Origin: Actinomycetes bacterium
GTDB taxonomy: Bacteria; Actinomycetota; Actinomycetes; JACCUZ01
Assembly: GCA_038223055.1 (NCBI GenBank)
Contig: JBBRHF010000001.1
Span: 1-60,419, forward strand
Length of the DNA: 60,419 nucleotides
Direction of reading: 5' to 3'
Shown here: piece after piece, positions 2,228 to 38,943 of the stretch
Layout: the number at the start of each line of letters is the position of its first letter
How positions within the stretch are numbered: the first letter of the stretch is position 1
The notes under the pieces: generated by a model
The model's input: the letters and a program-made list of their open reading frames with translations, nothing else
Told to the model about the DNA's origin: nothing
Databases searched by the model: none
Program-made: the position numbers and the translations under genes

Positions 2228-3613
2228 TCAGGCCAGCCCGGCCGCCGAGAACGCCGCCGCGGACGCCTCGATCGTCGCGGCAGGTCCCACGACGGGGGCG
2301 ACCGCGCCGAGCGTCTTGAGCCCGTCACCGGTATTGAAGATCACCGTGTCCGCGTCCGGGTCCAGCTGCCCCGACGCGAGCAGCTTGCGCAGCACGGCGA
2401 CGGTGACCCCGCCGGCCGTCTCACCGAAGATCCCCTCGGTGCGCGCCAGCAGGCGGATGCTCTCAATGATCTCGTCGTCGGTGACATCCTCGACCGCACC
2501 GCCCGTACGCCGGCAGGTATCCAGCACGTAGGGTCCGTCGGCCGGGTTGCCAATCGCGAGCGACTTGGCGATCGTGCGGGGCCGCACCGGGGCCACGACG
2601 TCATGGCCGGCCTTGAACGCGGCGGCGACCGGCGAACATCCGGTCGCCTGCGCCCCGAACAGCCGGTACGCGGTGGGCTCAACCAACCCGAGCTCACCCA
2701 ACTCGCGAAACCCCTTGTCCACCTTGGTCAACTGCGAACCCGAGGCGACGGGTACGACGACCTGTTGAGGCAGCCGCCAGCCCAGCTGTTCGGCCACCTC
2801 GTAGCCCAGCGTCTTGGAGCCCTCGGCGTAGTAGGGGCGCACGTTGACGTTGACGAAGGCCCAGTCCTCGTGTTCCTCGGCCAGCTCGCAGGCGACCCGG
2901 TTGACGTCGTCGTAGGTTCCCTCGACCGCGACGAGGGTGCCGCCGTAGACGGCGGTCGTCACGATCTTCTGCTGCTCGAGGTCGGCGGGGACGAGGACCA
3001 CCGAGCGGATGCCGGCCCGGGCGGCGGCCGCGGCCACGGCGTTGGCGAGGTTGCCGGTCGACGGGCAGGCCAGGGTGGTGAATCCGAACTCGCGTGCGGC
3101 CGCCAGCGCCACGGCGACGACGCGGTCCTTGAACGAGTGGGTCGGGTTGGCACTGTCGTCCTTGACCCACAGCGCCCTCATCCCCAGCTCTCGACCCAGG
3201 TTGTGGGCGCGAACCAGCGGCGTACAGCCCGGTTCGAGGTTCGGGGTCTCGATCACGCAGGACGGCACGGGCAGCAGCGCCCGGTAACGCCAGATGTTCT
3301 GCGGACCTGCCTCGATCGAGGCGCGGGTCACCGTCCCGAACTCGTAGGACACCTCGAGCGGACCGAAGCACTCGGCGCAGGCGTAGGAGGGCCCCAGCGG
3401 CGCAACGGCGCCACACTCGCGACACGCCAGGCCGATCGCCGGGCCGAGGGCGGGCGAAGAACCCGGCCGAGCCGGCGCGGATGCCGAGCCGGTGGATGGG
3501 GCCGACGCGGGTGGAGCCGACGCGGGTGCTGCGGGTGCTGAAGTTGCGGGTGCTGAAGTTGCGGGTGCGGAAGTCGCGGGTGCGGAAGTCGCGGGTGTTG
3601 AGAGTGCAGGCAT
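2228..3613 (-). CDS. thrC: threonine synthase family PLP enzyme with N-terminal Cys4 zinc-ribbon (ThrC paralog, possibly MetM-like)
   Basis: ATG at 3613 preceded by GAGGAGAGGA. Contains CRECGAVAPLGPSYACAECFGPLE (zinc ribbon), PTHSFKDR (PLP lysine motif), STGNLANAVAAAAARAGI and GIFGETAGGVT. The N-terminus carries TSAPA repeats. Confidence 0.85.
   Translation of the reverse strand: MPALSTPATSAPATSAPATSAPATSAPAAPASAPPASAPSTGSASAPARPGSSPALGPAIGLACRECGAVAPLGPSYACAECFGPLEVSYEFGTVTRASIEAGPQNIWRYRALLPVPSCVIETPNLEPGCTPLVRAHNLGRELGMRALWVKDDSANPTHSFKDRVVAVALAAAREFGFTTLACPSTGNLANAVAAAAARAGIRSVVLVPADLEQQKIVTTAVYGGTLVAVEGTYDDVNRVACELAEEHEDWAFVNVNVRPYYAEGSKTLGYEVAEQLGWRLPQQVVVPVASGSQLTKVDKGFRELGELGLVEPTAYRLFGAQATGCSPVAAAFKAGHDVVAPVRPRTIAKSLAIGNPADGPYVLDTCRRTGGAVEDVTDDEIIESIRLLARTEGIFGETAGGVTVAVLRKLLASGQLDPDADTVIFNTGDGLKTLGAVAPVVGPAATIEASAAAFSAAGLA
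3501..3607. repeat. in-frame 15-nt tandem repeats (2 + 4 copies) in the 5' end of the thrC-like gene
   Basis: gccgacgcgggtgga/gccgacgcgggtgct, then gggtgctgaagttgc x2 and gggtgcggaagtcgc x2. These encode (TSAPA)n on the minus strand. Confidence 0.9.
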
Positions 3614-3768: not shown

Positions 3769-4165
3769 GGTGTTCAGTTGTTTGCTCAGAGTACGGCCGG
3801 AGCCGAGCGCTTCTCGAACCGCGTCCGGGACCTGAGACGCCACACCGCACGGGCGCGGCGCTGCCCGAGGGACGTTCCCGGTAGCCCCGCCACCGACATC
3901 CCCGACTGGCAACCACCCGAGCGGTCAAGACCTCGACATCGGCCACGATCCCCCATTCCGACTACAGGGTCTTGCTGCCGACCCGATGCCGCCTACATGG
4001 TGAGCGACGCTGCGTCCGACAGATGAGATTCGCCCACCTATCAACGTCAAAGTGCGCCTCGCGAGGTGTCCACACCTATGTCGGGTGCGTTTGGCCTCGG
4101 TCGGTGACGCTCCCCGAGCCTTCGCTGCCGACGCACCACCTCGATGGTGGCCGATTTGAGGCGCT

Positions 4166-4702
4166 GTGCCCGTTGTGCGGCCCATGGGGATCCCCGTCCT
4201 CGATCAGGCACACTTGTGGCCACGAGGGATGGACCTGAGTGGCCGGACGTTGGGCGGCTACGTCGTGGGCCGACCGAGAGGGCAGGACGTGCGACCAGCA
4301 CTGCGACTGCGCCAGGTGACCAACGTGGTCAACCTGTCCACGCCGCTCGGCCTCCTCCTCGCCGCGGCCGCTCGAACCCGCCTCGAGCGCGCCGCTGACG
4401 GCCTCCTCGTGGCCTGGGGCTACCGCTGGCCGGTGCCCAAGGCACCGGCGTTCACGGTCGGCAACGTCATCCTGGTGCGCTTGGACGAGGAAACACTCGC
4501 CGCCCGGCCGCGGCTGATGGCTCACGAGGGCCGCCACGCCACGCAGTACGCCGTGTGCTTCGGGCCGCTACTGCTGCCGCTCTACCTGCTGGCCGGCGCC
4601 TGGTCGTGGTGGCGCACCCGCGACGTCGCCGCGCGCAACGTGTTCGAGCGGCTGGCGGGTCTGGAGGACGGCGGCTACCGGGCTCCGGCGGACCGGCCCT
4701 AA
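4166..4702 (+). CDS. hypothetical protein with HExxH-like motif (MAHEGRHATQY) and C-terminal hydrophobic segment
   Basis: GC3-rich ORF. GTG at 4166 has GAGG 4 nt upstream; an alternative ATG lies at 4229. No family recognised beyond the HEGRH motif. Confidence 0.55.
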   Translation: MPVVRPMGIPVLDQAHLWPRGMDLSGRTLGGYVVGRPRGQDVRPALRLRQVTNVVNLSTPLGLLLAAAARTRLERAADGLLVAWGYRWPVPKAPAFTVGNVILVRLDEETLAARPRLMAHEGRHATQYAVCFGPLLLPLYLLAGAWSWWRTRDVAARNVFERLAGLEDGGYRAPADRP

Positions 4703-4712
4703 AGTCGACGGC

Positions 4713-6281
<1,569 letters not shown>

Positions 6282-6288
6282 GGCTCGG

Positions 6289-7407
6289 ATGTGGCTGACC
6301 CGCGAGCCGTCATCTGTCATGCTCGGTGAGATCATGCTGGCTATCCACGATAGGTCTCCGCGTGCCTGGAGGGCGCAGGCTCGCACTGTGCTGTCCATGG
6401 TCGCCGCCGTGTCGATCATCGTGACCGTGCTTCCCAAGGTCGCCGGAGCCTCCTGGGCGCAGATCGGACCGATGCTGCGAGCACTCACAGTGGGTCAGAT
6501 CCTGCTGCTCACGGCCCTGTGGTTCGTCGGCCTCTACGCCTACTCGTTCGTGCAGACGGCGTCCCTGCCTCGGCTGTCCAAGCGCCAGGCGCTGACCATG
6601 AACCTCAGCGGGAGCGCCGTGGCCAACCTCGTGCCCTTCGGCGGTGCGCTGGGCATCGGGGTCAACTACGCGATGGTGCGCTCGTGGGGCATGGGCAAGA
6701 CCGCCTTCACGCTGTCCGCCCTCGTGACCAACATCTGGAACATTCTGACCAAGCTGAGCCTCCCGATCATCGCGCTCGGCGTGATCGTCATCGGCGGGCA
6801 GGTCACGGATCGCCGCCTGGTCGTGCCGGCCGTGGTTGCGGCCACGGTCCTCGTCATGGTGACGGGTGCCATGGCGGCGGCGCTGACCAGCGTGGCGGCG
6901 GCCCGACTGCTCGGCCGTTGGGCGGAACGCACGGCCAACGGAGCTCTGCGGATGGTGCGTTCGGACCGTCGGGTGCGCTGGGAACGTCGGGCGGTCGGGC
7001 TGCGGTTACGAACCGTCGACCTCCTCCGGACGGCGTGGGCCCAGATGTCGCTCGGGATGCTGGTCTACGCGGCGCTTCAGTCGCTGTTGCTGTGGGCGAC
7101 GCTGCACATGCTGGGCAGTCACCTGCCGCCGTCGGTGGTGTTCGCGGGTTACGCGCTCGAGCGGTTGCTGACCCTGGTCGTCCTCACGCCGGGTGGCGCC
7201 GGGTTCGCCGAGGTGGGCACCACTGCGCTGCTGATCGCGTTCGGCGGCGCGCCGGCCGTCACGGCGGCGGGAGTGCTGGTCTACCGCGGCTTCACCTTCC
7301 TGATCGAGATCCCCGTCGGGGGTGCGGTGCTGCTGGGTTGGCTCTGGCGACGGCGCCGGAACAACCGGACCGAGCAGACCCCAGCACTGGCCGGCGGGGC
7401 CGCCTGA
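6289..7407 (+). CDS. lysylphosphatidylglycerol-synthase-TM-like (flippase-like) integral membrane protein
   Basis: Multi-TM protein. Has the N-terminal pattern typical of the LPG_synthase_TM/UPF0104 family (...LTALWFVGLYAYSFVQTASLP...SGSAVANLVPFGGALGIGVNYAMVRSWG...PGGAGFAEVG). Start is 8 nt after the otsA stop. Confidence 0.65.
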   Translation: MWLTREPSSVMLGEIMLAIHDRSPRAWRAQARTVLSMVAAVSIIVTVLPKVAGASWAQIGPMLRALTVGQILLLTALWFVGLYAYSFVQTASLPRLSKRQALTMNLSGSAVANLVPFGGALGIGVNYAMVRSWGMGKTAFTLSALVTNIWNILTKLSLPIIALGVIVIGGQVTDRRLVVPAVVAATVLVMVTGAMAAALTSVAAARLLGRWAERTANGALRMVRSDRRVRWERRAVGLRLRTVDLLRTAWAQMSLGMLVYAALQSLLLWATLHMLGSHLPPSVVFAGYALERLLTLVVLTPGGAGFAEVGTTALLIAFGGAPAVTAAGVLVYRGFTFLIEIPVGGAVLLGWLWRRRRNNRTEQTPALAGGAA

Positions 7408-8561
7408 TGCGGATCGCGCACGTCACCGACTGCTACTTGCCCCAGCGCGGCGGCATCGAGATGCAGGTGCACGACCTGGCGGCCCACCAGCGAGCCGCCG
7501 GGCACGACGTCGACATCTTCACTGCCACCCGGTCCGACGCCACCGGCGACGCGGCGCCGGAGCCGGACCCGGCGTGGGTGCACCGGGTGGTCCGCGCCCG
7601 GCGTCCCGGTGCCCACATGATCGCCTGCATTCGCGCGGCGGCCCCACTGTTCGCCGCCGGCGACTACGACGCGGTGCACGTGCATTGGTCGATCTACTCC
7701 CCGCTCGGGCAGATCGCGGTCCGCTCTGCGGCCGCGGCCGGGATCCCGACGGTTATCACGATCCACTCGCTGTGGTGGCGCATCGAGCCGCTCCCACGCG
7801 TGTCCAACCTCGCTCTGGGCTGGAGCGGCCTACCGGTGCTCTGGTCGGCCGTCAGCCACGTCGCCGCCGAGCCGATTGACCGGATGTTGCGCATCTCGCG
7901 ACCCACAATCGTCCTGCCCAACGGCATCGACCTGGGCGAATGGAAGCCGGCATCCGAGGCGGGCCCAAGAATCGGCTCGGAGGTCGTCCTCGCGAGCGTG
8001 ATGCGCCTGGCCCCCCGCAAGCGCCCGATGCGGCTGCTGCGGATGGCCCGCCAGCTCAAGGCACGTGTCCCCGGCGCCAGCCTTCGGCTGGTCATCGTCG
8101 GCGAGGGTCCCGAACGTGCCACGCTCGAGAGCTACATCTCCCGGCACGCCATGTCGTCCTGGGTCGACCTTCCGGGCTGGCTGACCCGGCCCGAGATCCG
8201 CGACGTGCTGCACGCGGCTGACGTCTACGTCGCACCCGCCGATCTCGAATCGTTCGGCATCGCCGCCCTCGAGGCGCGCTGTGCGGGCCTTCCCGTCGTC
8301 GCCAAGGCACGCGGCGGCGTCGGGGAGTTCATCACCGACGGGCTGGACGGTTTCCTGGCCCGAAGCGACGACGGACTCGTCGACTCGCTCGAGCAACTCG
8401 TGCGGTCCCCGCTGCTGCGTTCCTCGATGAGCGCCCACAACCGTCGCGTCCCCCCGCCGCTGGGTTGGGCGGCGGCCCTGGCCCGCACCGACGAGGCCTA
8501 TGCGGCTGCGGCCGGCCTCGCGGAGAGGCGCGCCGGTGCTCGTCGGCGGGTGGCCGCGTGA
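7407..8561 (+). CDS. glycosyltransferase family 4 (GT-B, PIG-A/MshA-like fold class)
   Basis: MRIAHVTDCYLPQRGGIEMQVHDLA at the N-terminus and the EX7E region ESFGIAALEARCAGLPVV. The ATG overlaps the upstream stop (TGATG). The longer 6519 ORF start is a shadow extension. Confidence 0.8.
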   Translation: MRIAHVTDCYLPQRGGIEMQVHDLAAHQRAAGHDVDIFTATRSDATGDAAPEPDPAWVHRVVRARRPGAHMIACIRAAAPLFAAGDYDAVHVHWSIYSPLGQIAVRSAAAAGIPTVITIHSLWWRIEPLPRVSNLALGWSGLPVLWSAVSHVAAEPIDRMLRISRPTIVLPNGIDLGEWKPASEAGPRIGSEVVLASVMRLAPRKRPMRLLRMARQLKARVPGASLRLVIVGEGPERATLESYISRHAMSSWVDLPGWLTRPEIRDVLHAADVYVAPADLESFGIAALEARCAGLPVVAKARGGVGEFITDGLDGFLARSDDGLVDSLEQLVRSPLLRSSMSAHNRRVPPPLGWAAALARTDEAYAAAAGLAERRAGARRRVAA

Positions 8562-9559
8562 GCCACCCCCCGGCTGCGACCTGCACGCTCGTGTCCTTCC
8601 ACGCCCATCCCGACGACGAGGCGCTGCTGACGGCCGGATCGCTGGCCAAGGCCGCAGCCGACGGCCACCGCGTCGTGCTCGTCGTGGCGACGGCCGGCGA
8701 GTCCGGGCTGGCGGCTTCGCCTTTCCACGAGGGAACCGGCGGGTCGGGCCAGCTCTTCGGGTCGGGCCAGCTCGGCGGATCGGGCCAGCTCGGCAGGTTG
8801 GGCCAGCACCGGATCGCCGAGCTGCACCGGGCGGCCGCGGCGCTGGGTTGCGCTCGGGTCGAGCTGCTGGGCTACGCCGACTCCGGGATGGACGGGACAG
8901 CGGCGCTCCCCCCCGAGCTCGGCTCCGACTCCAGCACCGGCTCCGACTCCAGCACCGGCTCCGGCACCGGCACCGGCTCCAGCACCGGCTCCCTCACCAG
9001 GACCCGGACCCGGTTCGCGGATGCCGACGTCGAGGAGGCGGCGACCCGCTTGGCGGCACTGCTGCGCGAGGAGCGGGCGCAGGTCCTCACCATCTACGAC
9101 GAGCGCGGCGGCTATGGACACCCCGACCACGTCCAGGTGCACCACGTGGGGCGGCGCGCCGCCGAGCTGGCCGGCACCCCCGTGGTGCTCGAGGCCACCG
9201 TCGATCGCGACCTGCTGCTCCGGGTGCTCCGGGTGCTCCGGCCATTGGCCCGGGTCCTGCCGTTCCTCGCTCTGGACGGGCTCGACCGGCTCGGTTCCGC
9301 CTACACGCCGCGGGCCGGACTGACGCACCGCATCGACGTACGCGCCCAGGCGTCGCAGAAACGCGCGGCGATGGCCGCGCACGCCAGCCAGGCCACCGGC
9401 GGGGCCGGGACGCGCACTCTGAGTCTTTTCCTGCGGCTCCCGCTGCCGGTGTTCCGCATCGTGTTCGGCCACGAGTGGTTCACCGAGCGTGACTGCAGCG
9501 CAGGAGGACCCCTGCGACCCGACCTGTTCGCCACCCTGCCCGCGAGTAGCCCGACGTGA
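8558..9559 (+). CDS. PIG-L/LmbE family N-acetylglucosaminyl deacetylase
   Basis: VSFHAHPDDEALLTAGSLA (AHPDDE zinc motif), GYGHPDHVQVH. GTG overlaps the GT4 stop (GTGA). Contains two internal 18-nt repeat tracts. Confidence 0.8.
   Translation: MSHPPAATCTLVSFHAHPDDEALLTAGSLAKAAADGHRVVLVVATAGESGLAASPFHEGTGGSGQLFGSGQLGGSGQLGRLGQHRIAELHRAAAALGCARVELLGYADSGMDGTAALPPELGSDSSTGSDSSTGSGTGTGSSTGSLTRTRTRFADADVEEAATRLAALLREERAQVLTIYDERGGYGHPDHVQVHHVGRRAAELAGTPVVLEATVDRDLLLRVLRVLRPLARVLPFLALDGLDRLGSAYTPRAGLTHRIDVRAQASQKRAAMAAHASQATGGAGTRTLSLFLRLPLPVFRIVFGHEWFTERDCSAGGPLRPDLFATLPASSPT
8741..8809. repeat. in-frame 18-nt tandem repeat (about 3.8 copies) inside the PIG-L gene
   Basis: gggtcgggccagctcttc / gggtcgggccagctcggc / ggatcgggccagctcggc, encoding GSGQLF GSGQLG GSGQLG RLGQ. 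Confidence 0.9.
8921..8992. repeat. in-frame 18-nt tandem repeat (4 copies) inside the PIG-L gene
   Basis: ggctccgactccagcacc x2 followed by two diverged copies, encoding GSDSSTGSDSSTGSGTGTGSSTGS. Confidence 0.9.
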
Positions 9560-10374
9560 CCTCCCTGGCCCTGGAGCGTGTCGTCGCCTGCGCACGCCGG
9601 GCCCGACGGACCCGGCCGCTGCTGATCGGCGAGATTGCCGTCGTCGCGCTGCTGGTGTTCGCCTACGACCGGGTTCGTGCGCTGGCCGAACTGCGGCCCG
9701 CCGCAGCCCTGGCCAACGGGCAGCTCGTGATCGACGCCGAACGGTTCCTGCACGTCGACATCGAGTTGACTGCCAACCTGTGGCTCACCAGCCACCGCAT
9801 GCTCAGCGAGCTGTCCTCGTGGTACTACCAGACCGCCCACCTCACGGTGACCCTGCTGGTGCTCGCGTTGTGCTACTGGCGCCGCCCCGACGCCTACCGG
9901 TCGGCGCGCAACGCCCTGGTCGCGATCAACGTCGTCGGCTTCATGGTGTTCTGGGTGTTCCCGGTGGCGCCGCCCCGGCTGGCCGGCGCCGGCTTCGTGG
10001 ACACCGCCCTGGCCGCCGGCGTGTCAGCCCCCACCGACCCGTCGGCGTCGATGAACCCGTATGCCGCGATGCCCTCGCTGCATCTGGCCTGGGCCGCCTG
10101 GGTCGCGGTCGTGGGACTGCTGCTGACCCGCCAGCTGCTGGCTCGGGTGCTGTGCGTGGCCTACCCTCTCGTCACTGCCGTCGTGGTGATGATCACCGCC
10201 AACCACTACCTGTTCGACGTGCTAGCGGGGGTCGCGGTCGCGTTGCTGATGGCCCGACTGACCGGCCTGACCTCAGGTGCAGCAGTCGTAAGGCCACGCG
10301 TCCCGTCGCCTCGGACCGGCTCCCCGCCGCGATCACGCAAGAGCGGTCGCGCCGAGGACTCTCCCGCCGTGTGA
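9556..10374 (+). CDS. PAP2 superfamily membrane protein (PAP2_C / inositol-phosphorylceramide-synthase-like)
   Basis: Multi-TM protein with the PAP2 C2/C3-like motifs PSLHLAWA and TANHYLFDVLAG. GTG overlaps the PIG-L stop (GTGA). Confidence 0.7.
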   Translation: MTSLALERVVACARRARRTRPLLIGEIAVVALLVFAYDRVRALAELRPAAALANGQLVIDAERFLHVDIELTANLWLTSHRMLSELSSWYYQTAHLTVTLLVLALCYWRRPDAYRSARNALVAINVVGFMVFWVFPVAPPRLAGAGFVDTALAAGVSAPTDPSASMNPYAAMPSLHLAWAAWVAVVGLLLTRQLLARVLCVAYPLVTAVVVMITANHYLFDVLAGVAVALLMARLTGLTSGAAVVRPRVPSPRTGSPPRSRKSGRAEDSPAV

Positions 10375-10387
10375 GCGCCTCGGCGGC

Positions 10388-10418
10388 CCGGTGACCTAGA
10401 CGGCCCCGTGGCCTAGAC
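10388..10418. repeat. two copies of a 13-14-nt motif (C)CGTGGCCTAGAC containing the otsB stop codon
   Basis: ccggtgacctagac ... ccgtggcctagac. The same 13-mer recurs at 11932 and 11945. Confidence 0.7.
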
Positions 10419-11267
10419 AGGCGGCCCCGTCGGCGCCATGGCCTGGACCAGCGCGTGGAGCAGCCCGACCACACCGTCGGGACCGTCGACCACGAGGTCG
10501 GCGCGCTTGGCCAGAACCGTGACCTCGGTCGACCCGCTGCACACGAGCAACCCGGGAATTCCGCTGGCGCGCTGGCGATCGACCTCATCGAAGGCCGCGA
10601 GGTCGCCGAGATCGTCCCCGACGAAGACCACGACCGACGCCGGCCCAGCCTGCGTCCCCTCCTCGGTCAGGGCGCGCAGGGCGCCCCCCTTGTCGGCGCC
10701 CGCCGGCCGCAGCTCGATCACCATGCGCCCCGGCTCGACCACCAGGCCGGCCTCGCGCGCGAGAGCGGCGAGCGGGCCCGCGACGAGCGCCTGGGCTGCC
10801 TCCGGGTCCGCCGTCCGGCGCAGGTGCACCGCGAGTGCCCGGCCCTTGTCCTCGACGTAGGTGCCCTCGGGGGCGCCCAGCCGCTCGAGCAGCGGGGGCA
10901 GCCGTCGTCGTACGTCCTCGACCGCGGGGTCCGGCTCGGGAGCCTCGATGACTCCCTCGGCCCAGCGCTCGAGCCCGTAGTGGCCGAGGACGACCAGGGC
11001 GCGTACGTCGCCCAGACCGCCGTAGTCGACCGCGAGTTGGGCCGGCCGGCCGGTGATGATCGCCAGCCGTCCCAGTCGCCCGGCCAGGGCCGCCAACGCT
11101 CCGGCCGCGGCGGGGTGCGCCCGGGCGTCGTCGGGATCGGGCACGATCGGGGCGAGCGTGCCGTCGAAATCCAGACCCATGACCGCGCGCTCCGGGGCGA
11201 CGAGCAGGGCGTCGAGGCCCGCCCTGCCCTGATCGGTGCTCGGCTCGGGCAGCGGAGGTGGTGGCAT
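10413..11267 (-). CDS. otsB: trehalose-phosphatase (HAD-IIB)
   Basis: ATG at 11267. MGLDFDGTLAPIVPDPDDA (DxDGT motif), AIITGRP, FVGDDLGDLAAF. Confidence 0.85.
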   Translation of the reverse strand: MPPPPLPEPSTDQGRAGLDALLVAPERAVMGLDFDGTLAPIVPDPDDARAHPAAAGALAALAGRLGRLAIITGRPAQLAVDYGGLGDVRALVVLGHYGLERWAEGVIEAPEPDPAVEDVRRRLPPLLERLGAPEGTYVEDKGRALAVHLRRTADPEAAQALVAGPLAALAREAGLVVEPGRMVIELRPAGADKGGALRALTEEGTQAGPASVVVFVGDDLGDLAAFDEVDRQRASGIPGLLVCSGSTEVTVLAKRADLVVDGPDGVVGLLHALVQAMAPTGPPV

Positions 11268-11298
11268 GGCTCGGAAGCGTAGTGCCCGGAACGACCCG

Positions 11299-11886
11299 TC
11301 AGGTCGGGTAGTCGTTGCCGAGAACCACCGTGAGGCGCGCGGTGGACAGGTTGCCGAACCGGGGACGGACGCGCGCCGACGCGGGCAGAACGCCCGAGAC
11401 AACCCGGGCCGAAGCTGCTCCGCCGGCCGGGTAGTAGACCGTCGTCGCGGGCACCGCGCCGCGGAAGTTGGCCGTGACCACGACGTTCCAGCCCCGCGCC
11501 CTCAGCCGTCGAGCAACGCGGGCTGCCAGCCCGGTGCGCCGGGTGGCGTTGAGCACGACGACGTCTGGCCGGCGCACCGTCGCCCGACGACGCGGCGGTG
11601 GTGGCGGGAACGACCGACCGGTGTGGGATGGAGCCGGGGTGCGCCGTGCCGGAACCGGGACGCTGCGCGACGGGGGCGGGGCGCTCGCGGGAGGTGTCAG
11701 CGTGGGGACGGCCCTGGGTGCCGCCGACCCGGCGTGTCGCGGGGTCACGTCCTGGCCGCGCCACACGAACAGGCCGGTCACCAGCGCGGTCACTGCGACC
11801 ACGGCCAGCAGGGACGGCAGCATGGCGGTCGCCAGCGCCCGCAGCCCCGAGCGATCGGGCGGGCTGATCGGATCGGGCGGGCTCAT
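11299..11886 (-). CDS. LytR_C domain-containing membrane-anchored protein
   Basis: N-terminal TM segment (LPSLLAVVAVTALVTGLFVW), Pro-rich linker, and a C-terminus VVVLNATRRTGLAARVARRLRARGWNV...TVYYP...LTVVLGNDY typical of LytR C-terminal domains. Start is uncertain. Confidence 0.7.
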   Translation of the reverse strand: MSPPDPISPPDRSGLRALATAMLPSLLAVVAVTALVTGLFVWRGQDVTPRHAGSAAPRAVPTLTPPASAPPPSRSVPVPARRTPAPSHTGRSFPPPPPRRRATVRRPDVVVLNATRRTGLAARVARRLRARGWNVVVTANFRGAVPATTVYYPAGGAASARVVSGVLPASARVRPRFGNLSTARLTVVLGNDYPT

Positions 11887-11920
11887 CGGGAGGGTTGTCG
11901 GGCCACGTCGTGGGCTCGAC

Positions 11921-11957
11921 GCGGCCTGGACCCGTGGCCTAGACCCGTGGCCTAGAC
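11921..11957. repeat. tandem copies of CCGTGGCCTAGAC at the 3' end of the DUF3263 gene
   Basis: ggcctggac | ccgtggcctagac | ccgtggcctagac. The last copy supplies the TAG stop of the minus-strand gene. Confidence 0.8.
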
Positions 11958-12284
11958 ATCGATGCCGAGCCGGCGGGCCGAGCGGGCGCGCTGGCGGGAT
12001 GACCGCAACCGGCGCAGCCGCTTGACCAGCATCGGATCGACCGCGAGCGCCTCGGGCCGGTCGATGAGGCCGTTGAGCACCTGGTAGTAGCGCGTCGCCG
12101 ACATCTCGAAGAGCTCGCGGATCGCCTGTTCCTTGGCTCCTGCGTACTTCCACCACTGGCGCTCGAATGCGAGAATCTCCCGGTCCCGCGCCGACAAGTC
12201 GGCGTCGGCGTCGGCAGATGTGGGCCGGAAGGCGCTAGCGGCGTCCATCGTGCTCCTCGCGTGGGGACCGTGTTCCCTGGCCAT
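11952..12284 (-). CDS. DUF3263 domain-containing protein
   Basis: LSARDREILAFERQWWKYAGAKEQAIRELFEMSATRYYQVLNGLIDRPEALAVDPMLVKRLRRLR is the conserved DUF3263 core. ATG at 12284 lies 1 nt after the upstream stop; alternative ATG at 12248. Confidence 0.8.
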   Translation of the reverse strand: MAREHGPHARSTMDAASAFRPTSADADADLSARDREILAFERQWWKYAGAKEQAIRELFEMSATRYYQVLNGLIDRPEALAVDPMLVKRLRRLRSSRQRARSARRLGIDV

Positions 12285-12285
12285 G

Positions 12286-13143
12286 CTAGAGGGGAATCAC
12301 ATCTGTGTCATTCGCAGTCGTCTGGATCAGTCGCAACGGGCCTAGCGTCAGGCCCCCGGCCCGGATGCTGTCCACCAGCCGCTCGTGCCGACCTACCCTC
12401 GCACCGGGCCAGACGACCGACCGGACCAACTCGCCCTCGACGACTGCGCCGGCGCCGACGACCGACCGCCCACCCGACGCCCTCAGGTTGGCGGCGAGGT
12501 AGGTGCCCGGCGTGCCGCAGTCCATCGGTACGTCGTCGCGCGCGACGACCAGGTCCAGAGCACCCCGCTCGTGCAGCGCCCGCCAGGAGGTCTCATAGAG
12601 CCCGGACGGCTCCGGCACCAGATCCCGCACGGTCGACCATGGCAGCAGCGCCGACCCGACGTAGCTCACGGCTCCGAAGTCGCGGGGGGACGGCTCGGGT
12701 CCGCAGAGCAGCCGTGGCCGGTGCCCGTCCCAGCCGTCGAGAAGGATGTCCAGCAGGCCGGTCCTGCCGCCGCCGGGTCGACCGGGTGCCCTGACCGACG
12801 GCGACCAGGCGTCGGCGTTGGTGAGCAGAACGGCCCGCCCGCCGAGCCAGTCCCGAAGACGCCCGAGCGCCCCAGCGGTGCCCAGCGCTTCGCCCTCGAT
12901 GGACAGGTGGACCCCGCGACCGCGCAGATGGTCCACCATCTGGTCCTGGTGGTGGTGCACATTGACCGCGATGTCGCGCACACCGGAGGACCGCAGCCGT
13001 TCCAGCGCCCAGTCCACCAGGGGTCGGTTGTCCACGGGGCACAACGCCTTGGGCCGCAGATCGGTCAGCGGTCGCAGTCGGGTGCCCCCACCCGCCGCCA
13101 GGACCACACCCGCCGGCACGCCGCGCCGGCCGCAGTGGTCCAT
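12286..13143 (-). CDS. sugar-phosphate nucleotidyltransferase (NTP_transferase family)
   Basis: VVLAAGGGTRLRPLTDLRPKALCPV (the G-x-G-T-R-x-x-P-x-T signature) and EGEALGTAGAL. Confidence 0.8.
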   Translation of the reverse strand: MDHCGRRGVPAGVVLAAGGGTRLRPLTDLRPKALCPVDNRPLVDWALERLRSSGVRDIAVNVHHHQDQMVDHLRGRGVHLSIEGEALGTAGALGRLRDWLGGRAVLLTNADAWSPSVRAPGRPGGGRTGLLDILLDGWDGHRPRLLCGPEPSPRDFGAVSYVGSALLPWSTVRDLVPEPSGLYETSWRALHERGALDLVVARDDVPMDCGTPGTYLAANLRASGGRSVVGAGAVVEGELVRSVVWPGARVGRHERLVDSIRAGGLTLGPLRLIQTTANDTDVIPL

Positions 13144-13197
13144 GCCGACAGGGTGCCAGAAGGAATGGCGGCGCGCCGACGCGTCGTTCTAGGCCAC

Positions 13198-14172
13198 ATG
13201 CCAGCCATCACCGTGGACGACCACCGTGCCCTTCCCGTCATCGCGCGCCCGAACGCCGTGGGACACCGCCCGCGCCCGGTGGCCTCGCTCACCACGGCCC
13301 CCAGCGGCCTGGAGGGCGAGGGGTTCCCCGTCCGCCGCGCGTTCGCCGGCGTCGACCTGGCCCGGCTCGACCCGTTCGTGCACCTGGACCAGATGGGCGA
13401 GGTGGCCTACGCGCCGGGAGAGCCCAAGGGCACGGCCTGGCATCCGCACCGGGGCTTCGAGACGGTCACCTACATGATCGACGGCGAGATGGCGCACCGG
13501 GACTCCCTGGGCGGCGGCGGGCTGATCAGCAACGGCGACACCCAGTGGATGACGGCCGGATCGGGCATCCTGCACATCGAGGCCCCGCCCGAGCGCCTGG
13601 TCACCAGCGGGGGCCTGTTCCACGGCTTCCAGCTGTGGGTCAACCTCCCCCGCGACAACAAGTTCGCGGCGCCCCGCTACCAGGACATCCGCGCCGAGCG
13701 GGTCGGCCTGCTGACCTCCCCCGACGGGGGCGCCCTGATCCGCGTCATCGCCGGCGAGGTCGGCGACCTCACCGGGTCGGCCGGGCCGGGCTCGACCTAC
13801 ACGCCGATCACGCTGACCCACATCACCCTCGCCCCCGGCGCCGAGGTGACCCTGCCCTGGCGCCCCGACTTCAACGCGCTGGCCTACGCCATCTCGGGAG
13901 CCGGCACGGTCGGCCCGGCGGCGGCGCCGCTGCGTGCGGGCCAGTTGGCCGTCTTCGGTGCCGGCGACACCGTGACCGTGCGCGCCGCCGCCGTACAGCC
14001 GGGCAGCGCGACCGCGCTGGACGTGCTCGTCCTGGGCGGGCGACCGATCCGCGAGCCCCTCGCCTGGTGTGGACCGTTCGTCATGAACACCCGGGCCGAG
14101 GTCATCCAGGCGTTCGAGGACTTCCAGGCCGGCCGGCTCGGGCAGGTGCCCGCGGACCGGGCGCTGAGCTGA
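13198..14172 (+). CDS. pirin family protein
   Basis: ATG at 13198. GFPVRRAFAG...PFVHLDQMG...WHPHRGFETVTYMIDGEMAHRDSLG...QWMTAGSGILHIE...GFQLWVNLP. The upstream 12385 extension is antisense shadow. Confidence 0.85.
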   Translation: MPAITVDDHRALPVIARPNAVGHRPRPVASLTTAPSGLEGEGFPVRRAFAGVDLARLDPFVHLDQMGEVAYAPGEPKGTAWHPHRGFETVTYMIDGEMAHRDSLGGGGLISNGDTQWMTAGSGILHIEAPPERLVTSGGLFHGFQLWVNLPRDNKFAAPRYQDIRAERVGLLTSPDGGALIRVIAGEVGDLTGSAGPGSTYTPITLTHITLAPGAEVTLPWRPDFNALAYAISGAGTVGPAAAPLRAGQLAVFGAGDTVTVRAAAVQPGSATALDVLVLGGRPIREPLAWCGPFVMNTRAEVIQAFEDFQAGRLGQVPADRALS

Positions 14173-15035: not shown

Positions 15036-15132
15036 GCCCGATGTCGTGCGCCCCTGTCGGGGACCAGCCCGCACGCGGTGTGCTGGACCTGTCGAGGGGC
15101 GGGACCGGTCCGCCAACGGCAGAGGAGGGGTC

Positions 15133-16017
15133 ATGCACGAGCGCAACAGCGCCATCGTGATTGGGGTCGACGGCTCACCAGGGGGTGCGGTCGCGTTGGG
15201 ATGGGGCCTGGACCTCGCGGCTCGCCAAAACGCGCCGGTCCGCCTCGTCCACGCCTTCGAGGTGTCCATCTACGACGTCCAGTTGGCCGAGAACGCCCAT
15301 CCCGCCGGCGGCGGCCTGCGCGGGTCAGCACAGCGGATCGTCGATGACGCGGCGGATCGTGCCCGCGCCCTCTACCCACACCTGGACGTCACGACCCGCA
15401 TCGAGGCCGGCCCGTCGGTGGTGACGCTGATCGAGGAGTCGCAGGACGCCGACACGGTCGTTCTGGGCAACCGCGGCAGCGGCGGCTTCGTCAGCCTGGT
15501 CGTGGGCTCGACCACCCTGCAGGTGGCCAGCCACGCGCACTGCACCGTTGTGGCCGTGCCGATCCGCGACCTGACCGGCCCGCCGGGGACGGGCATCGTC
15601 CTGGGCGTGGACGGCTCCCCCGTGTCGGAGGCGGCGATGGACTACGCCTTCCGGGCCGCCAGCGACGCGGGCGAACCCCTCATCGCCGTGCGCGCCTGGC
15701 ACGATCCGGCCGCCGTCGGCCCGTCGGTGATGCTGCCGCTGGTCTATGACCCCGAGGTCATCGACGTGGAAGAGCACCACGTGCTCACCGAGGCGTTGGC
15801 CAGATGGTCGCCCAAGTACCCGAACGTCGACGTACGGCCCAGAGTCGTGCAGGACCATCCGGCGCATGCCCTGATCGAGCAGTCCCGCGGCGCGCGGCTG
15901 CTCGTCGTCGGGTGCCGCGGGAGGGGCGAGCTGCGCAGCCTGCTGCTCGGCTCGGTCAGCCACGGTGTCCTGCACCACGCGACCTGCCCCGTTGCCGTCG
16001 TCCGCCCGCACCGCTGA
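15133..16017 (+). CDS. universal stress protein (tandem Usp domains)
   Basis: ATG at 15133 preceded by GAGGAGGGG. IVIGVDGSPGGAVAL...VVLGNRGSGGF...VVAVP is repeated as IVLGVDGSPVSEAAM...LVVGCRGRGEL...GSVSHGVLHHATCPVAVV. Confidence 0.85.
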   Translation: MHERNSAIVIGVDGSPGGAVALGWGLDLAARQNAPVRLVHAFEVSIYDVQLAENAHPAGGGLRGSAQRIVDDAADRARALYPHLDVTTRIEAGPSVVTLIEESQDADTVVLGNRGSGGFVSLVVGSTTLQVASHAHCTVVAVPIRDLTGPPGTGIVLGVDGSPVSEAAMDYAFRAASDAGEPLIAVRAWHDPAAVGPSVMLPLVYDPEVIDVEEHHVLTEALARWSPKYPNVDVRPRVVQDHPAHALIEQSRGARLLVVGCRGRGELRSLLLGSVSHGVLHHATCPVAVVRPHR

Positions 16018-16050
16018 ATCCCGGCCCAGCACACCGATGAGGGGAACGTC

Positions 16051-16560
16051 ATGAACACCAGCGGGATCGTGGTGGGGGTCGACAACTCCGTGCCGTCGGC
16101 GGCCGCCCTGCGCTGGGCGGCCGAGGAGGCCCGCCTTCGCCACGCGTCGCTGCGTGTGGTCTACACCTGGGAGCTGACCTGTGCCGAGGAGTACACGGCC
16201 GGTGTCCAGCTGCGCGAGGTGTCCGCGGTCGACGCGCGAGCCCGGGCCACGAGCTGGGTCGCCGACGCGCTCGGCGAGAGTCCGCGGCCCACCTGGACTC
16301 TCGACATCATCGAGGGCCCGCCGGGACCGGCGCTGGTCGCCCGGTCGCGGGAGGCGGAGCTGTTGGTCGTCGGCACCCGCGAGCACGTCGGCGTCCGGCG
16401 GTTCGTCGCCGGCTCGGTGAGCCACTACTGCGTGTCCCACGCGAGCTGCCCGGTCGTTGCGGTCCCCGCCGAAGGGCCCCCTGCACCGGCCTCAGTCCCC
16501 GCAGCGCAGGCGGACCCGATCCTCGTTTCCCAGGGAGATCGCTCGGCCGTACCCTCGTAG
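16051..16560 (+). CDS. universal stress protein (single Usp domain)
   Basis: IVVGVDNSVPSAAALRWAAEEA...LLVVGTREHVGVRRFVAGSVSHYCVSHASCPVVAVP. Confidence 0.85.
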   Translation: MNTSGIVVGVDNSVPSAAALRWAAEEARLRHASLRVVYTWELTCAEEYTAGVQLREVSAVDARARATSWVADALGESPRPTWTLDIIEGPPGPALVARSREAELLVVGTREHVGVRRFVAGSVSHYCVSHASCPVVAVPAEGPPAPASVPAAQADPILVSQGDRSAVPS

Positions 16561-16566
16561 GCCCGA

Positions 16567-19842: not shown

Positions 19843-23170
<3,328 letters not shown>

Positions 23171-23194
23171 GGACTGCTGCCTTCTTCCTCGGGG

Positions 23195-23230
23195 GAACGG
23201 CGGGACGGGTGGGAACGGCGGGACGGGTGG
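23195..23230. repeat. 18-bp direct repeat x2 in the reductase/beta-subunit intercistronic spacer
   Basis: gaacggcgggacgggtgg gaacggcgggacgggtgg, immediately 5' (in mRNA sense) of the beta-subunit RBS GAGGAAGAAGG. Confidence 0.85.
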
Positions 23231-23233
23231 GGG

Positions 23234-24277: not shown

Positions 24278-24365
24278 GCTTGGGGTCCTTGCTGGTCGGG
24301 GCTGGCCGGGGGGCTGGCCGGGGCTGGGGCTGGACGGGCGCGGGATCGTGTCGCCCGGTCAGGCA

Positions 24366-24397
24366 GGGTGGGATGGCGGAGATCCGCCATCCCACCC
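24366..24397. other. perfect GC-rich hairpin just downstream of the alpha-subunit stop
   Basis: gggtgggatggcgga-ga-tccgccatcccaccc has 15-nt arms that are exact reverse complements. Located 20 nt 3' of the TAG of the alpha-subunit gene, inside the operon. Confidence 0.8.
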
Positions 24398-24416
24398 CAG
24401 CCCTTCCGCTGTTGGA

Positions 24417-26060: not shown

Positions 26061-26270
26061 CGTTCTTTTTCCTTCCTCGGGCTGGGTTCCGTGAGGCGGG
26101 CCTGTGCGCCCGGGCGTTGGCGATCCGGCAGCCCGTCCCCGGTGCCGGGCTAAGCGGAACTGCCGTCGCCGTGCAAAAGTCATCACAACCCCTGACGTGA
26201 CCTTTGGCCGTCTCATTCTGAGATCTCCGTCACATTGCCGTTGCATACTCTTAACACGAGGGCTGGGTGG

Positions 26271-26310
26271 ACGGACGTGAGAACGGACGTAGAACGGACG
26301 TAGAACGGAG
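26271..26310. promoter_or_regulatory. about 3.5 tandem 11-12-bp direct repeats (ACGGACGT[AG]GA) in the divergent control region
   Basis: acggacgtgaga acggacgtaga acggacgtaga acggag. Ends 8 nt before the regulator GTG and lies about 210-250 nt upstream of the alpha-subunit start. Confidence 0.6.
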
Positions 26311-26318
26311 TTCCATAC

Positions 26319-30406: not shown

Positions 30407-30491
30407 AGACGGTGCTTCGGCCCGACCATGCCCAGCCTTGAGCGCCGGGCCAGTCCAGACGGTCTCCAGCGGGCGTCTGGCCTGGCGGGGA

Positions 30492-31340: not shown

Positions 31341-31351
31341 CCTCGGACGCT

Positions 31352-38848: not shown

Positions 38849-38943
38849 CTGCTGTCCCCTTCAGGTTGCGGGCCGCATCGTCGCGACCGCACCAGCATCG
38901 TCGCACCCCAGCGCCCGACATGCCGGACGGGCAAGATGTGACC

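What the first reader, a model, noticed from the sequence alone, without database searches (positions are those of the whole stretch)
6289..10374. GPI-anchor-like glycolipid module (flippase-like + GT4 + PIG-L + PAP2/IPC-synthase-like) nested between otsA and otsB
Seen: directly after otsA (8-nt gap) come four genes joined by overlapping stop/start codons (TGATG at 7405-7409, GTGA at 8558, GTGA at 9556). They are an LPG-synthase-TM/flippase-like membrane protein, a GT4 glycosyltransferase, a PIG-L/LmbE deacetylase (AHPDDE motif) and a polytopic PAP2 protein with SLH and HYxxD motifs. otsB sits convergently right after them, and a sugar nucleotidyltransferase lies 2 kb further on. Established: GT4 followed by a PIG-L deacetylase is the chemistry of the first two steps of GPI anchors (GlcNAc-PI to GlcN-PI) and of mycothiol (MshA/MshB). 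PAP2_C-type enzymes transfer phospho-head-groups between lipids. LPG-synthase TM domains act as lipid flippases. Inference: the operon could build and export a GlcN-containing phospho-glycolipid, perhaps with a trehalose or inositol head-group, co-expressed with trehalose-6-phosphate synthesis. I do not know of a characterised product for this gene combination.
Basis: partly seen in the sequence, partly recalled or inferred. Interest (0 to 1): 0.65.

Follow-up and report, generated by a model that had tools for sequence, protein, structure and literature searches.

The report
Actinobacterial glucosamine-lipid synthesis and flipping operon
Four tightly packed genes in an uncultured actinobacterium most likely add a glucosamine sugar to a membrane lipid, flip it to the outer face and modify it there; the same gene set is conserved but unstudied in many actinomycetes, and may make their classical "glucosamine-containing phospholipids", whose genes I could find no report of.

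Summary
Window 6289-10374 holds four co-directional genes with overlapping stop/start codons: an MprF-type flippase-domain protein, a GT4 glycosyltransferase, a PIG-L/LmbE deacetylase and an Aur1-like PAP2_3 membrane enzyme, lying between convergent otsA and otsB.

The GT4 and PIG-L are not MshA/MshB; both score far below the NCBIfam equivalog cut-offs.

Across 48 loci from other Actinomycetota, the GT4 sits next to the PIG-L in at least five gene arrangements. The flippase gene is within 6 kb in 39 of them. PAP2_3 is adjacent in only about six.

The otsA/otsB nesting is found only in this lineage. Eighty relatives have otsB and otsA directly convergent, or with unrelated cargo between them, and none has the module.

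Best reading: a cytoplasmic GlcNAc transfer to a membrane lipid, then N-deacetylation, flipping, and in this subset an extracytoplasmic phospho-transfer. This parallels GpgSDF (Pseudomonas aeruginosa) and HexSDF (Clostridioides difficile) but uses a different deacetylase family.

The acceptor lipid is unknown. The trehalose link is not supported. A link to the actinomycete "GluNU" phospholipids is plausible but untested.

Verdict: a new variant of a known kind, of moderate to high interest.

The parts
4713..6281 (+). otsA (trehalose-6-phosphate synthase, GT20). This is context: the upstream neighbour, probably co-transcribed with the module. It carries an N-terminal in-frame 15-nt x7 repeat.
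   Evidence: Pfam Glyco_transf_20, 341 bits. Tandem repeat at 4732-4837. No terminator-like site between otsA and gene 1.
6289..7407 (+). Flippase-domain-only MprF homologue (LPG_synthase_TM / UPF0104). It has about 8-10 TM helices and no aminoacyl-PG synthase domain. The start codon is uncertain (6289, 6319, 6334 or 6397).
   Evidence: Pfam PF03706, 60 bits. The AF2 model has pLDDT 86. The only significant Foldseek PDB hits are MprF structures 7duw, 9goe, 7f47 and 9j8s, at probability 1.0 over about 355 columns. Start-codon comparison with L171.
7407..8561 (+). Soluble GT4 retaining glycosyltransferase with the E-x7-E motif (E281...E289). Predicted UDP-GlcNAc:lipid GlcNAc-transferase.
   Evidence: Pfam Glycos_transf_1 and Glyco_transf_4. 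No TM segment. A profile of 18 orthologs finds BshA, PimA, PimB' and MshA as the nearest solved relatives. No NCBIfam equivalog cut-off was reached. Invariant residues in A3.
8558..9559 (+). PIG-L/LmbE zinc-dependent N-acetylglucosaminyl deacetylase (AHPDDE and HPDH motifs). It is soluble. Two in-frame low-complexity insertions make it about 55 aa longer than its orthologs.
   Evidence: Pfam PIG-L, 90 bits. MshB equivalog scores 128 bits against a cut-off of 224. Alignment A1. The profile finds MshB 1q74 at 2.5e-31. No TM segment.
8737..8992 (+). Two in-frame tandem-repeat expansions inside the PIG-L gene (18 nt x3.9 at 8737-8807; 18/30-nt units at 8920-8992). They encode GSGQL- and S/T/G-rich loops.
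   Evidence: Tandem Repeats Finder. In alignment A1 the insertions fall at positions where other orthologs also vary in length.
9556..10374 (+). Polytopic PAP2_3 enzyme related to inositol-phosphorylceramide synthase Aur1. The catalytic residues (R141, H176, H217, D221) are predicted on the extracytoplasmic face.
   Evidence: Pfam PAP2_3, 158 bits. Profile A2 finds Aur1 (9vj3, 9ivc) with the three motifs aligned. The AF2 model has pLDDT 85. Foldseek top hits are IPC synthase 9vj4_A and 9ivc_A, then LpxE and PgpB. K/R distribution of the loops.
10413..11402 (-). otsB (trehalose-6-phosphate phosphatase). This is context: the convergent downstream neighbour, part of the conserved backbone NTP-transferase / NapA / LytR_C / otsB / otsA.
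   Evidence: Pfam Trehalose_PPase and TIGR00685, 124 bits against a cut-off of 68. Backbone synteny in 80 metagenome loci.

Best explanation
The four genes form a pathway for a glucosamine-bearing membrane lipid, partly neutralising an anionic lipid head-group.

- Step 1 (inferred): the soluble GT4 transfers GlcNAc from UDP-GlcNAc to a membrane lipid at the cytoplasmic face. The most likely acceptors are phosphatidylinositol or phosphatidylglycerol.
- Step 2 (inferred from family chemistry): the soluble PIG-L zinc enzyme removes the N-acetyl group and exposes a free amine.
- Step 3 (inferred from fold and from analogous systems): the MprF-type flippase-domain protein moves the GlcN-lipid to the outer leaflet.
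- Step 4 (least certain, and present only in the subset of genomes that carry PAP2_3): the Aur1-like PAP2_3 enzyme, with its active site facing outward, carries out a phospho-transfer involving that lipid. It either moves a phospho-alcohol head-group from a donor phospholipid onto the GlcN-lipid (Ipt1-like), or moves the GlcN-bearing head-group onto another acceptor (Aur1-like), or transfers or removes a phosphate (LpxT- or PgpB-like).

The position behind otsA is a lineage-specific insertion. It may place the operon under the same (stress) regulation as trehalose synthesis, but it implies no trehalose chemistry.
For: What is shown:
- Domain and fold assignments for all four proteins.
- Catalytic motifs are invariant in the orthologs.
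- GT4 and PIG-L have no TM segments. The charged loops of PAP2_3 place its catalytic loop outside.
- Stop/start overlaps.

Conserved neighbourhood:
- In the genome scan, loci whose PIG-L is about 45% or more identical to the window's nearly always have the GT4 adjacent; three do not (L043, L047, L082).
- 39 of 48 loci have the flippase within 6 kb.
- These loci show at least five different gene orders. They span Streptosporangiaceae, Intrasporangiaceae/Dermatophilaceae, Nocardioidaceae, Kribbellaceae, Micromonosporaceae, Pseudonocardiaceae, Thermomonosporaceae and an Iamiaceae MAG.
- PIG-Ls without a neighbouring GT4 fall almost entirely into separate clades.
- PAP2_3 joins the module in three different arrangements, in the window lineage, L001, L046, Actinomadura and Dactylosporangium.

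Precedent:
- GT + deacetylase + MprF-like flippase operons make GlcN-PG in P. aeruginosa (PMC12713373) and an aminohexosyl glycolipid in C. difficile (PMC10128005).
- All characterised PIG-L family members deacetylate GlcNAc moieties. This rests on established knowledge; the solved relatives found are MshB and diacetylchitobiose deacetylases.
Against: - There is no lipid or expression data for this uncultured organism.
- The acceptor lipid is not identifiable from sequence.
- The NCBIfam equivalogs of the Pseudomonas system score very low: GlcN_PG_synth 34 bits against 480, and GlcN_PG_flip 23 against 320. Any relation is analogy plus shared superfamily, not orthology.
- The nearest solved relatives of the GT4 include BshA and MshA, which use soluble acceptors.
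- The nearest relative of the PIG-L is MshB, which acts on a soluble substrate.
- 9 of 48 loci lack an adjacent flippase gene, and only about 6 carry PAP2_3.
- Close PAP2_3 homologues (49-56% identity) also occur alone.
Confidence: 0.6

Rival explanations
1. The GT4 and PIG-L make a soluble GlcN-X metabolite, analogous to the first steps of mycothiol or bacillithiol (GlcNAc-Ins or GlcNAc-malate). The LPG_synthase_TM protein exports or imports it, or is functionally unrelated.
For: The nearest solved or curated relatives are BshA, MshA and MshB, which act on soluble acceptors. GT4 and PIG-L lack TM segments. 9 of 48 loci lack the flippase gene.
Against: No cysteine ligase or acetyltransferase gene (MshC/MshD or BshC type) showed up among the most recurrent neighbour clusters, only some of which were identified. 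The MprF-type lipid flippase fold is the most constant third partner, in 39 of 48 loci. PimA and PimB', which act on lipid acceptors, are equally close relatives. The recurrent fourth partner is a lipid phospho-transferase-type enzyme.
Confidence: 0.12
2. The module decorates a lipid-linked or wall-linked glycopolymer with GlcN, for example a polyprenyl-phosphate intermediate, a lipoglycan or a teichoic-type polymer. In this reading the PAP2 enzyme recycles polyprenyl pyrophosphate and the membrane protein flips the carrier lipid.
For: PAP2 relatives include LpxE and PgpB-type phosphatases. A LytR_C gene lies 1 kb away in the window. DedA/VTT genes lie within 3.5-5.7 kb in 14 loci.
Against: The LytR_C gene belongs to the conserved otsB backbone, not to the module. 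PAP2_3 is closest to IPC synthase, not to UppP/PgpB-type enzymes, and is absent from most modules. No polymerase, ligase or polyprenyl-phosphate glycosyltransferase is among the most recurrent neighbour clusters.
Confidence: 0.12
3. One reading: the product is a trehalose-based GlcN glycolipid, functionally coupled to OtsA/OtsB.
For: The module sits between otsA and otsB in the window and in its closest relative (L171 and L090). It is probably co-transcribed with otsA: the gap is short and no terminator was found.
Against: None of the 48 module loci in other genomes has otsA or otsB within 10 kb. None of 80 relatives with the otsB/otsA pair has the module. The same intergenic spot holds unrelated genes in others: an AAA+ ATPase, a putative kinase, and an unidentified 340-aa ORF that I read by eye as a possible EEP-family protein.
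Confidence: 0.05
4. Ordinary mycothiol biosynthesis: the GT4 is MshA and the PIG-L is MshB.
For: The domain families are the same. MshB and MshA appear among the best curated hits.
Against: The scores are far below the equivalog cut-offs: MshA 85 against 462.5, and MshB 128 against 224. All 18 GT4 orthologs match MshA only at low significance (best E = 4e-24). MshA and MshB are not normally adjacent, nor linked to a flippase; this last point is established knowledge.
Confidence: 0.02

Closest known systems
GpgSDF of Pseudomonas aeruginosa (GlcN-phosphatidylglycerol synthesis; PMC12713373)
   Same: A three-gene logic: a GT4 glycosyltransferase adds GlcNAc to a membrane lipid, a cytoplasmic deacetylase gives the free amine, and a UPF0104/MprF-like membrane protein is the predicted flippase. 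The organisation is operon-like.
   Different: The deacetylase is from another family (COG3233 there, PIG-L/LmbE here). The GT4 and the flippase are not orthologous: the NCBIfam GlcN_PG_synth and GlcN_PG_flip models score 34 and 23 bits against cut-offs of 480 and 320. There is no PAP2_3 partner in Pseudomonas. The acceptor lipid here is unknown.
HexSDF of Clostridioides difficile (aminohexosyl-hexosyl-diradylglycerol; PMC10128005)
   Same: Synthase + deacetylase + MprF-flippase-domain-only protein, making an amino-sugar lipid that changes resistance to cationic antibiotics.
   Different: HexS is an MGDG-synthase-like glycosyltransferase and HexD a polysaccharide deacetylase. The acceptor there is a glycolipid, not necessarily a phospholipid. 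That operon is controlled by the HexRK two-component system. There is no PAP2_3.
First two steps of GPI-anchor synthesis (PIG-A / PIG-L) and the archaeal glucosaminyl-archaetidylinositol pathway
   Same: A GT4-class GlcNAc transfer to an inositol lipid is followed by a PIG-L family de-N-acetylase on the cytoplasmic face, and then by flipping.
   Different: No PIGA-specific domain was detected in the GT4. There are no later GPI enzymes (mannosyltransferases, transamidase). PI as the acceptor is only one possibility.
Aur1 / Ipt1 inositol-phosphoryl transferases of fungi (PAP2_3)
   Same: Same Pfam family. It is the best structural and profile match, with the PPx, PSLH and HYxxD motifs aligned. 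The active site faces the non-cytoplasmic side.
   Different: Only 21% identity and a TM-score of about 0.5. There is no Kei1-like partner. Actinobacteria are not known to make ceramide (my knowledge), so the acceptor must differ.
MshA/MshB (mycothiol) and BshA/BshB (bacillithiol)
   Same: A GT4 GlcNAc-transferase followed by a PIG-L family deacetylase. These are the closest solved and curated relatives.
   Different: The scores are below the equivalog cut-offs. Here the two genes are adjacent or overlapping and linked to membrane proteins. No cysteine ligase gene was recognised nearby.

Membership tests
GpgSDF/HexSDF-type amino-sugar lipid operons (synthase, deacetylase, flippase) | A glycosyltransferase gene, a deacetylase gene and an MprF-flippase-domain-only gene clustered together | tested here: met
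   Pfam and fold assignments. The genes overlap in the window. The clustering is conserved in 39 of 48 loci.
GpgSDF/HexSDF-type amino-sugar lipid operons (synthase, deacetylase, flippase) | Orthology to GpgS, GpgD and GpgF (NCBIfam equivalogs NF053787 and NF053789; COG3233 deacetylase) | tested here: not met
   GlcN_PG_synth scores 34 bits against a cut-off of 480, and GlcN_PG_flip 23 against 320. The deacetylase is PIG-L, which is a different family.
GpgSDF/HexSDF-type amino-sugar lipid operons (synthase, deacetylase, flippase) | The product is a GlcNAc/GlcN-modified membrane lipid | not testable with these tools
   This needs lipidomics of a mutant or of a heterologous host.
Mycothiol biosynthesis (MshA, MshB) | Scores above the NCBIfam equivalog cut-offs TIGR03449 and TIGR03445 | tested here: not met
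   MshA scores 85.1 against 462.5, and MshB 127.9 against 224.35. All 18 GT4 orthologs match MshA only at low significance, best E = 4e-24.
GPI-anchor early steps (PIG-A, PIG-L) | PIG-L family de-N-acetylase with zinc-binding H-x-D-D and H-x-D-H motifs | tested here: met
   Pfam PF02585, 90 bits. The motifs are invariant in A1.
GPI-anchor early steps (PIG-A, PIG-L) | PIG-A-type GT4 (PIGA domain) and phosphatidylinositol as the acceptor | tested here: inconclusive
   No PIGA domain is among the Pfam hits. PimA and PimB', which are PI-acting GT4s, are among the closest solved relatives, but so is BshA. The acceptor was not determined.
MprF (bifunctional aminoacyl-PG synthase/flippase) | N-terminal flippase TM domain | tested here: met
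   PF03706. Foldseek hits to MprF 7duw, 9goe, 7f47 and 9j8s at probability 1.0.
MprF (bifunctional aminoacyl-PG synthase/flippase) | C-terminal aminoacyl-PG synthase domain | tested here: not met
   The protein is 372 aa and matches only the first ~307 of the 841 positions of the MprF profile. There is no second Pfam domain.
Aur1/Ipt1-type PAP2_3 phospho-head-group transferases | PAP2_3 domain with conserved PSLH and HYxxD catalytic motifs; closest fold is IPC synthase | tested here: met
   PF14378, 158 bits. Motifs invariant. Profile and fold matches to Aur1.
Aur1/Ipt1-type PAP2_3 phospho-head-group transferases | Transferase (not phosphatase) activity with PI as donor and a ceramide or glycolipid as acceptor | not testable with these tools
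   This needs an enzyme assay. LpxE and PgpB phosphatases are the next-best structural matches.

The most novel reading that the evidence does not exclude
The conserved flippase + GT4 + PIG-L module (with or without PAP2_3) may be the missing biosynthetic locus for the 'GluNU' lipids. These are the glucosamine-containing, ninhydrin-positive phospholipids of unknown structure that define Lechevalier phospholipid types IV and V and have been used in actinomycete taxonomy since the 1970s.

The PAP2_3-bearing variant, as in this window, would make a further phospho-transferred derivative: a bacterial, Aur1-like head-group transfer onto or from a GlcN-lipid. I know of no described example.

Circumstantial support:
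- The module is present in every Streptosporangiaceae isolate retrieved: Streptosporangium, Nonomuraea, Microbispora, Planomonospora, Herbidospora and Thermocatellispora.
- It is present in Intrasporangiaceae, Saccharothrix and Actinomadura.
- Published chemotaxonomy gives type IV for Streptosporangium roseum, Intrasporangium calvum and Thermobispora bispora (PMC3035251, PMC3035309, PMC3035289).

Against:
- The module also occurs in genera that, as far as I know, are not reported to have GluNU: Kribbella, Nocardioides and Dactylosporangium.
- The survey kept only the best 80 loci, so absences could not be established.
Probability: 0.3. Interest if true: 0.75.

Novelty: new variant of a known kind. 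Interest (0 to 1): 0.58.

Why it matters
Amino-sugar modification of membrane lipids lowers the net negative surface charge. In the two characterised systems it is linked to stress or to resistance to cationic antibiotics such as daptomycin and bacitracin (PMC12713373, PMC10128005).

A widely conserved actinobacterial version, built with a different deacetylase family, would extend this strategy to the phylum that produces most such antibiotics.

It would also give a concrete genetic handle on the glucosamine-containing phospholipids that taxonomists have scored for decades. I found no report of their structure or their genes.

The Aur1-like PAP2_3 partner points to a bacterial head-group transfer reaction with no described counterpart.

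All of this can be tested directly in cultivable carriers by knock-out plus lipidomics.

Tried and rejected
- **Mycothiol reading.** Rejected on the equivalog scores.
- **Trehalose coupling.** Rejected after the two synteny surveys.
- **Anti-phage defence reading.** The weak Pfam 'GT4-conflict' hit raised this possibility, but PADLOC gave no hit for any of the four proteins.
- **Promoter and terminator scan of 4000-13500.** It found nothing useful: no terminator, and one promoter-like site near NapA.
- **Sequence-only PDB searches.** The single PAP2_3 protein, the flippase, and the flippase profile all gave nothing. Only a PAP2_3 profile and predicted folds gave matches.
- **First flippase structure job.** I repeated it with database homologues.
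- **Expression data.** No RNA-seq was found: an any-kind search returned only metagenome DNA runs, from sediment and microbial mat.
- **Literature searches.** I searched for the gene combination, PAP2_3, UPF0104 + deacetylase, and GluNU structure or biosynthesis. No paper turned up on the actinobacterial module or on the structure of GluNU.
- **Recurrent neighbours beyond the module.** I looked for them. Only a DedA/VTT gene at 3.5-5.7 kb in 14 loci, and family-specific synteny in Streptosporangiaceae, appeared. That is too weak to count as part of the system.
- **Acceptor lipid.** I could not determine it from GT4 similarity, because BshA and PimA are equally close.

Full report
**Observation**

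The window is a high-G+C (64-75% across the window) contig from a sediment metagenome.

Reading the junctions directly:
- otsA ends at 6281 and an ATG lies at 6289, a 7-nt gap.
- TGATG at 7405-7409 joins gene 1 to gene 2.
- GTGA at 8558 joins gene 2 to gene 3.
- GTGA at 9556 joins gene 3 to gene 4.
- Gene 4 ends at 10374, and otsB (10413-11402, minus strand) converges on it.

Pfam places the four products in LPG_synthase_TM (60 bits), Glycos_transf_1/Glyco_transf_4 (101/76 bits), PIG-L (90 bits) and PAP2_3 (158 bits). All are above the gathering scores.

One detail needs correcting. ATG 6289 is not conserved in the closest relative, whereas ATGs at 6319 and 6334 are. The start of gene 1 is therefore uncertain, and its distance from otsA is 7 to 115 nt.

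No terminator-like site separates otsA from the module.

**Not mycothiol**

Against NCBI's curated equivalog models, the GT4 scores 85 bits for MshA (cut-off 462). The deacetylase scores 128 bits for MshB (cut-off 224) and 95 for Mca (cut-off 277).

All 18 GT4 orthologs match the MshA and BshA models only at low significance (best E-values 4e-24 and 3e-34).

**Individual proteins**

*Gene 1 (flippase).* Its AlphaFold model (pLDDT 86) matches only MprF structures significantly in the PDB: 7duw, 9goe, 7f47 and 9j8s, at probability 1.0. The match covers about 355 columns, which is the whole flippase domain. The protein has no synthase domain.

*Gene 2 (GT4).* It is a soluble GT4 with the E-x7-E motif. 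A profile of its orthologs finds BshA (3e-34), PimA (6e-34), PimB' and MshA as the nearest solved relatives. These are retaining enzymes that use either UDP-GlcNAc as donor or phosphatidylinositol lipids as acceptor.

*Gene 3 (PIG-L).* It keeps the zinc and catalytic motifs of the family. It is closest to MshB among solved structures. Two in-frame tandem-repeat insertions are unique to this genome.

*Gene 4 (PAP2_3).* It is closest to yeast inositol-phosphorylceramide synthase Aur1.
- By profile, E = 5e-4 with the PPx, PSLH and HYxxD motifs aligned.
- By predicted fold, 9vj4_A and 9ivc_A are the top hits at probability 1.0 and TM about 0.5.
- The lipid phosphatases LpxE and PgpB come next.
- The arginine-rich N-terminus and C-terminal tail, together with a catalytic loop poor in K/R, place the active site outside the cytoplasm.

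**Conservation**

I scanned one genome per species with a profile of the PIG-L orthologs and kept the best 80 loci. I then compared every locus with the window proteins.

- Loci whose PIG-L is about 45% or more identical to the window's nearly always have the GT4 next to it; three do not (L043, L047, L082).
- With a profile search, 39 of 48 such loci have the flippase gene within 6 kb.
- The genes occur in at least five orders:
  - 23 loci with GT4< PIGL> flip>
  - 8 loci with flip> GT4> PIGL>
  - 4 loci with GT4< flip< PIGL>
  - 3 loci with PAP2< GT4< PIGL>
  - several others.
  That many arrangements is the signature of functional coupling rather than inherited synteny.
- The carriers include:
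  - Streptosporangiaceae: Streptosporangium, Nonomuraea, Microbispora, Planomonospora, Herbidospora and Thermocatellispora
  - Intrasporangiaceae/Dermatophilaceae: Terrabacter, Arsenicicoccus, Branchiibius and Nostocoides
  - other genera: Nocardioides, Kribbella, Dactylosporangium, Asanoa, Saccharothrix and Actinomadura
  - an Iamiaceae MAG.
- PIG-L homologues at 40-48% identity have no GT4 or flippase nearby (Mycobacterium, Streptomyces, Amycolatopsis, Acidimicrobiia). They fall almost entirely into separate clades in a neighbour-joining tree.

PAP2_3 is adjacent in only about six loci, in three different arrangements:
- L001/L002, in the same order as the window;
- two Actinomadura species and Dactylosporangium siamense, as PAP2< GT4<;
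- L046, convergent.

Close PAP2_3 homologues also occur alone. The core is therefore flippase + GT4 + PIG-L, and PAP2_3 is a recurrent accessory.

**The otsA/otsB nest**

The closest relative is represented by two Logan contigs from one sample, at 66-88% amino-acid identity. It has the same layout: otsA-flip-GT4 on one contig and GT4-PIGL-PAP2-<otsB on the other.

Eighty metagenome loci carrying otsB at 54-70% identity show the backbone NapA> otsB> <otsA. Most have the two ots genes directly convergent, and none carries the module.

Where there is a gap between them, it holds unrelated genes: an AAA+ ATPase (L091), a putative kinase (L120), and an unidentified 340-aa ORF that I read by eye as a possible EEP-family protein (L114).

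The nucleotidyltransferase, NapA and LytR_C genes belong to this backbone. The module is thus a lineage-specific insertion into a variable spot. It may be co-regulated with otsA, but the survey gives no support for trehalose chemistry.

**Mechanism**

The best-supported reading is a four-step pathway.
1. GlcNAc is transferred to a membrane lipid at the cytoplasmic face.
2. The N-acetyl group is removed by the PIG-L enzyme.
3. The GlcN-lipid is flipped by the MprF-type protein.
4. In the subset with PAP2_3, an extracytoplasmic phospho-transfer follows.

Steps 1-3 are inferred from family chemistry, from the conserved neighbourhood and from two experimentally characterised analogues. GpgSDF makes GlcN-phosphatidylglycerol in P. 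aeruginosa (PMC12713373). HexSDF makes an aminohexosyl glycolipid in C. difficile (PMC10128005).

The present system is not orthologous to either. The curated GlcN-PG models score 34 and 23 bits, and the deacetylase belongs to a different family. I therefore class it as a new variant of that kind.

The acceptor (PI, PG or another lipid) and the reaction of PAP2_3 cannot be fixed from sequence.

**Possible wider meaning**

From my own knowledge, actinomycete taxonomy uses 'phospholipid types', of which types IV and V are defined by glucosamine-containing phospholipids of unknown structure (GluNU).

Papers in the library confirm type IV for three organisms:
- Intrasporangium calvum (PMC3035309);
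- Thermobispora bispora (PMC3035289).

I found no paper on the structure or the genes of GluNU.

The module is present in every Streptosporangiaceae isolate retrieved and in Intrasporangiaceae. A GT4 plus a deacetylase would give exactly a ninhydrin-positive glyco-lipid.

However, the module also occurs in genera that, as far as I know, are not reported to have GluNU. The survey kept only the best 80 loci, so absences could not be established. I rate this link at about 0.3.

**Limits**

There are no expression or lipid data. The organism is uncultured. The survey of genomes is a sample rather than a census. Whole genomes could not be inspected, so the presence of separate MshA/MshB genes in the same genome was not shown directly.

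Noticed in passing
window 3530-3601, 4732-4837, 8737-8807, 8920-8992: There are several in-frame short tandem repeats (15-18 nt units, 4-7 copies) inside coding regions. They lie in the N-terminus of the threonine-synthase-like gene (PATSA repeats), the N-terminus of otsA (TDTAA repeats), and two loops of the PIG-L gene. This genome seems prone to coding-repeat expansion.
   Followed up: partly
window 10375-10412 (repeat 10384-10418); L091 2310-4698, L120 1814-3458, L114 8825-9919: The convergent otsB/otsA junction is a variable cargo spot in related genomes. Different unrelated genes sit there in different relatives: an AAA+ ATPase, a putative kinase plus a second ORF, and an unidentified 340-aa ORF (possibly EEP-family, by eye). 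In the window, the gene-4/otsB spacer contains a 17-nt direct repeat (CGGCCCCGTGACCTAGA, x2.1).
   Followed up: partly
L052-L089 (e.g. L063, L054, L053): A paralogous PIG-L clade is about 42-44% identical to the module's enzyme. It is found in Mycobacterium, Streptomyces, Amycolatopsis, Nocardia, Pseudonocardia and Acidimicrobiia, and has no GT4 or flippase nearby. Its substrate is unknown to me.
   Followed up: partly
L010-L015, L018, L022, L025, L032, L045 (about 1.1-1.4 kb downstream of PIG-L): In Streptosporangiaceae, a protein of about 1,130 aa follows the flippase gene directly. By eye it looks like a SARP/AfsR-type regulator with a nucleotide-binding and repeat region. It could be a regulator of the module, or it could simply be family synteny.
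   Followed up: no
L001 12364-13056; L010 16121-16651; L027 5716-6369 and 11 other loci: A DedA/VTT-domain membrane protein gene lies 3.5-5.7 kb from the module in 14 loci. Ten of these are Streptosporangiaceae, so they are not independent. DedA proteins are implicated in lipid or polyprenyl-phosphate flipping.
   Followed up: no
window 19843-28124: A soluble di-iron monooxygenase cluster: two Phenol_Hydrox subunits, a Fer2/FAD/NAD reductase, and a GroEL-like chaperonin. A divergent regulator with GAF, AAA+ and Fis-type HTH domains sits beside it. The cluster resembles propane/acetone/phenol monooxygenase (mim/prm-type) clusters. A second chaperonin paralogue is at 86-2098.
   Followed up: partly
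window 15046-17580: Two universal stress protein genes, one with tandem Usp domains, lie next to a nitroreductase-family gene. This resembles dormancy-regulon gene sets of mycobacteria, and together with otsA/otsB it gives the neighbourhood a stress flavour.
   Followed up: partly
window 38866-48988: A TerD-domain gene at 38866-40146 is followed by four ORFs (to 43468) that I did not scan. Next comes a 1,225-aa protein with PRTase_2, TRSP, StiP and PELOTA_1 domains, a tellurite-resistance-like stress system.
   Followed up: partly
window 28223-33493: Two large GGDEF-EAL proteins, one with a HAMP domain, flank a 282-aa membrane protein that has no Pfam match.
   Followed up: no
window 37445-38088: A small gene pair of 78 aa and 136 aa with overlapping stop/start. 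By eye it looks like a VapB/VapC (PIN-domain) toxin-antitoxin pair. It was not scanned.
   Followed up: no
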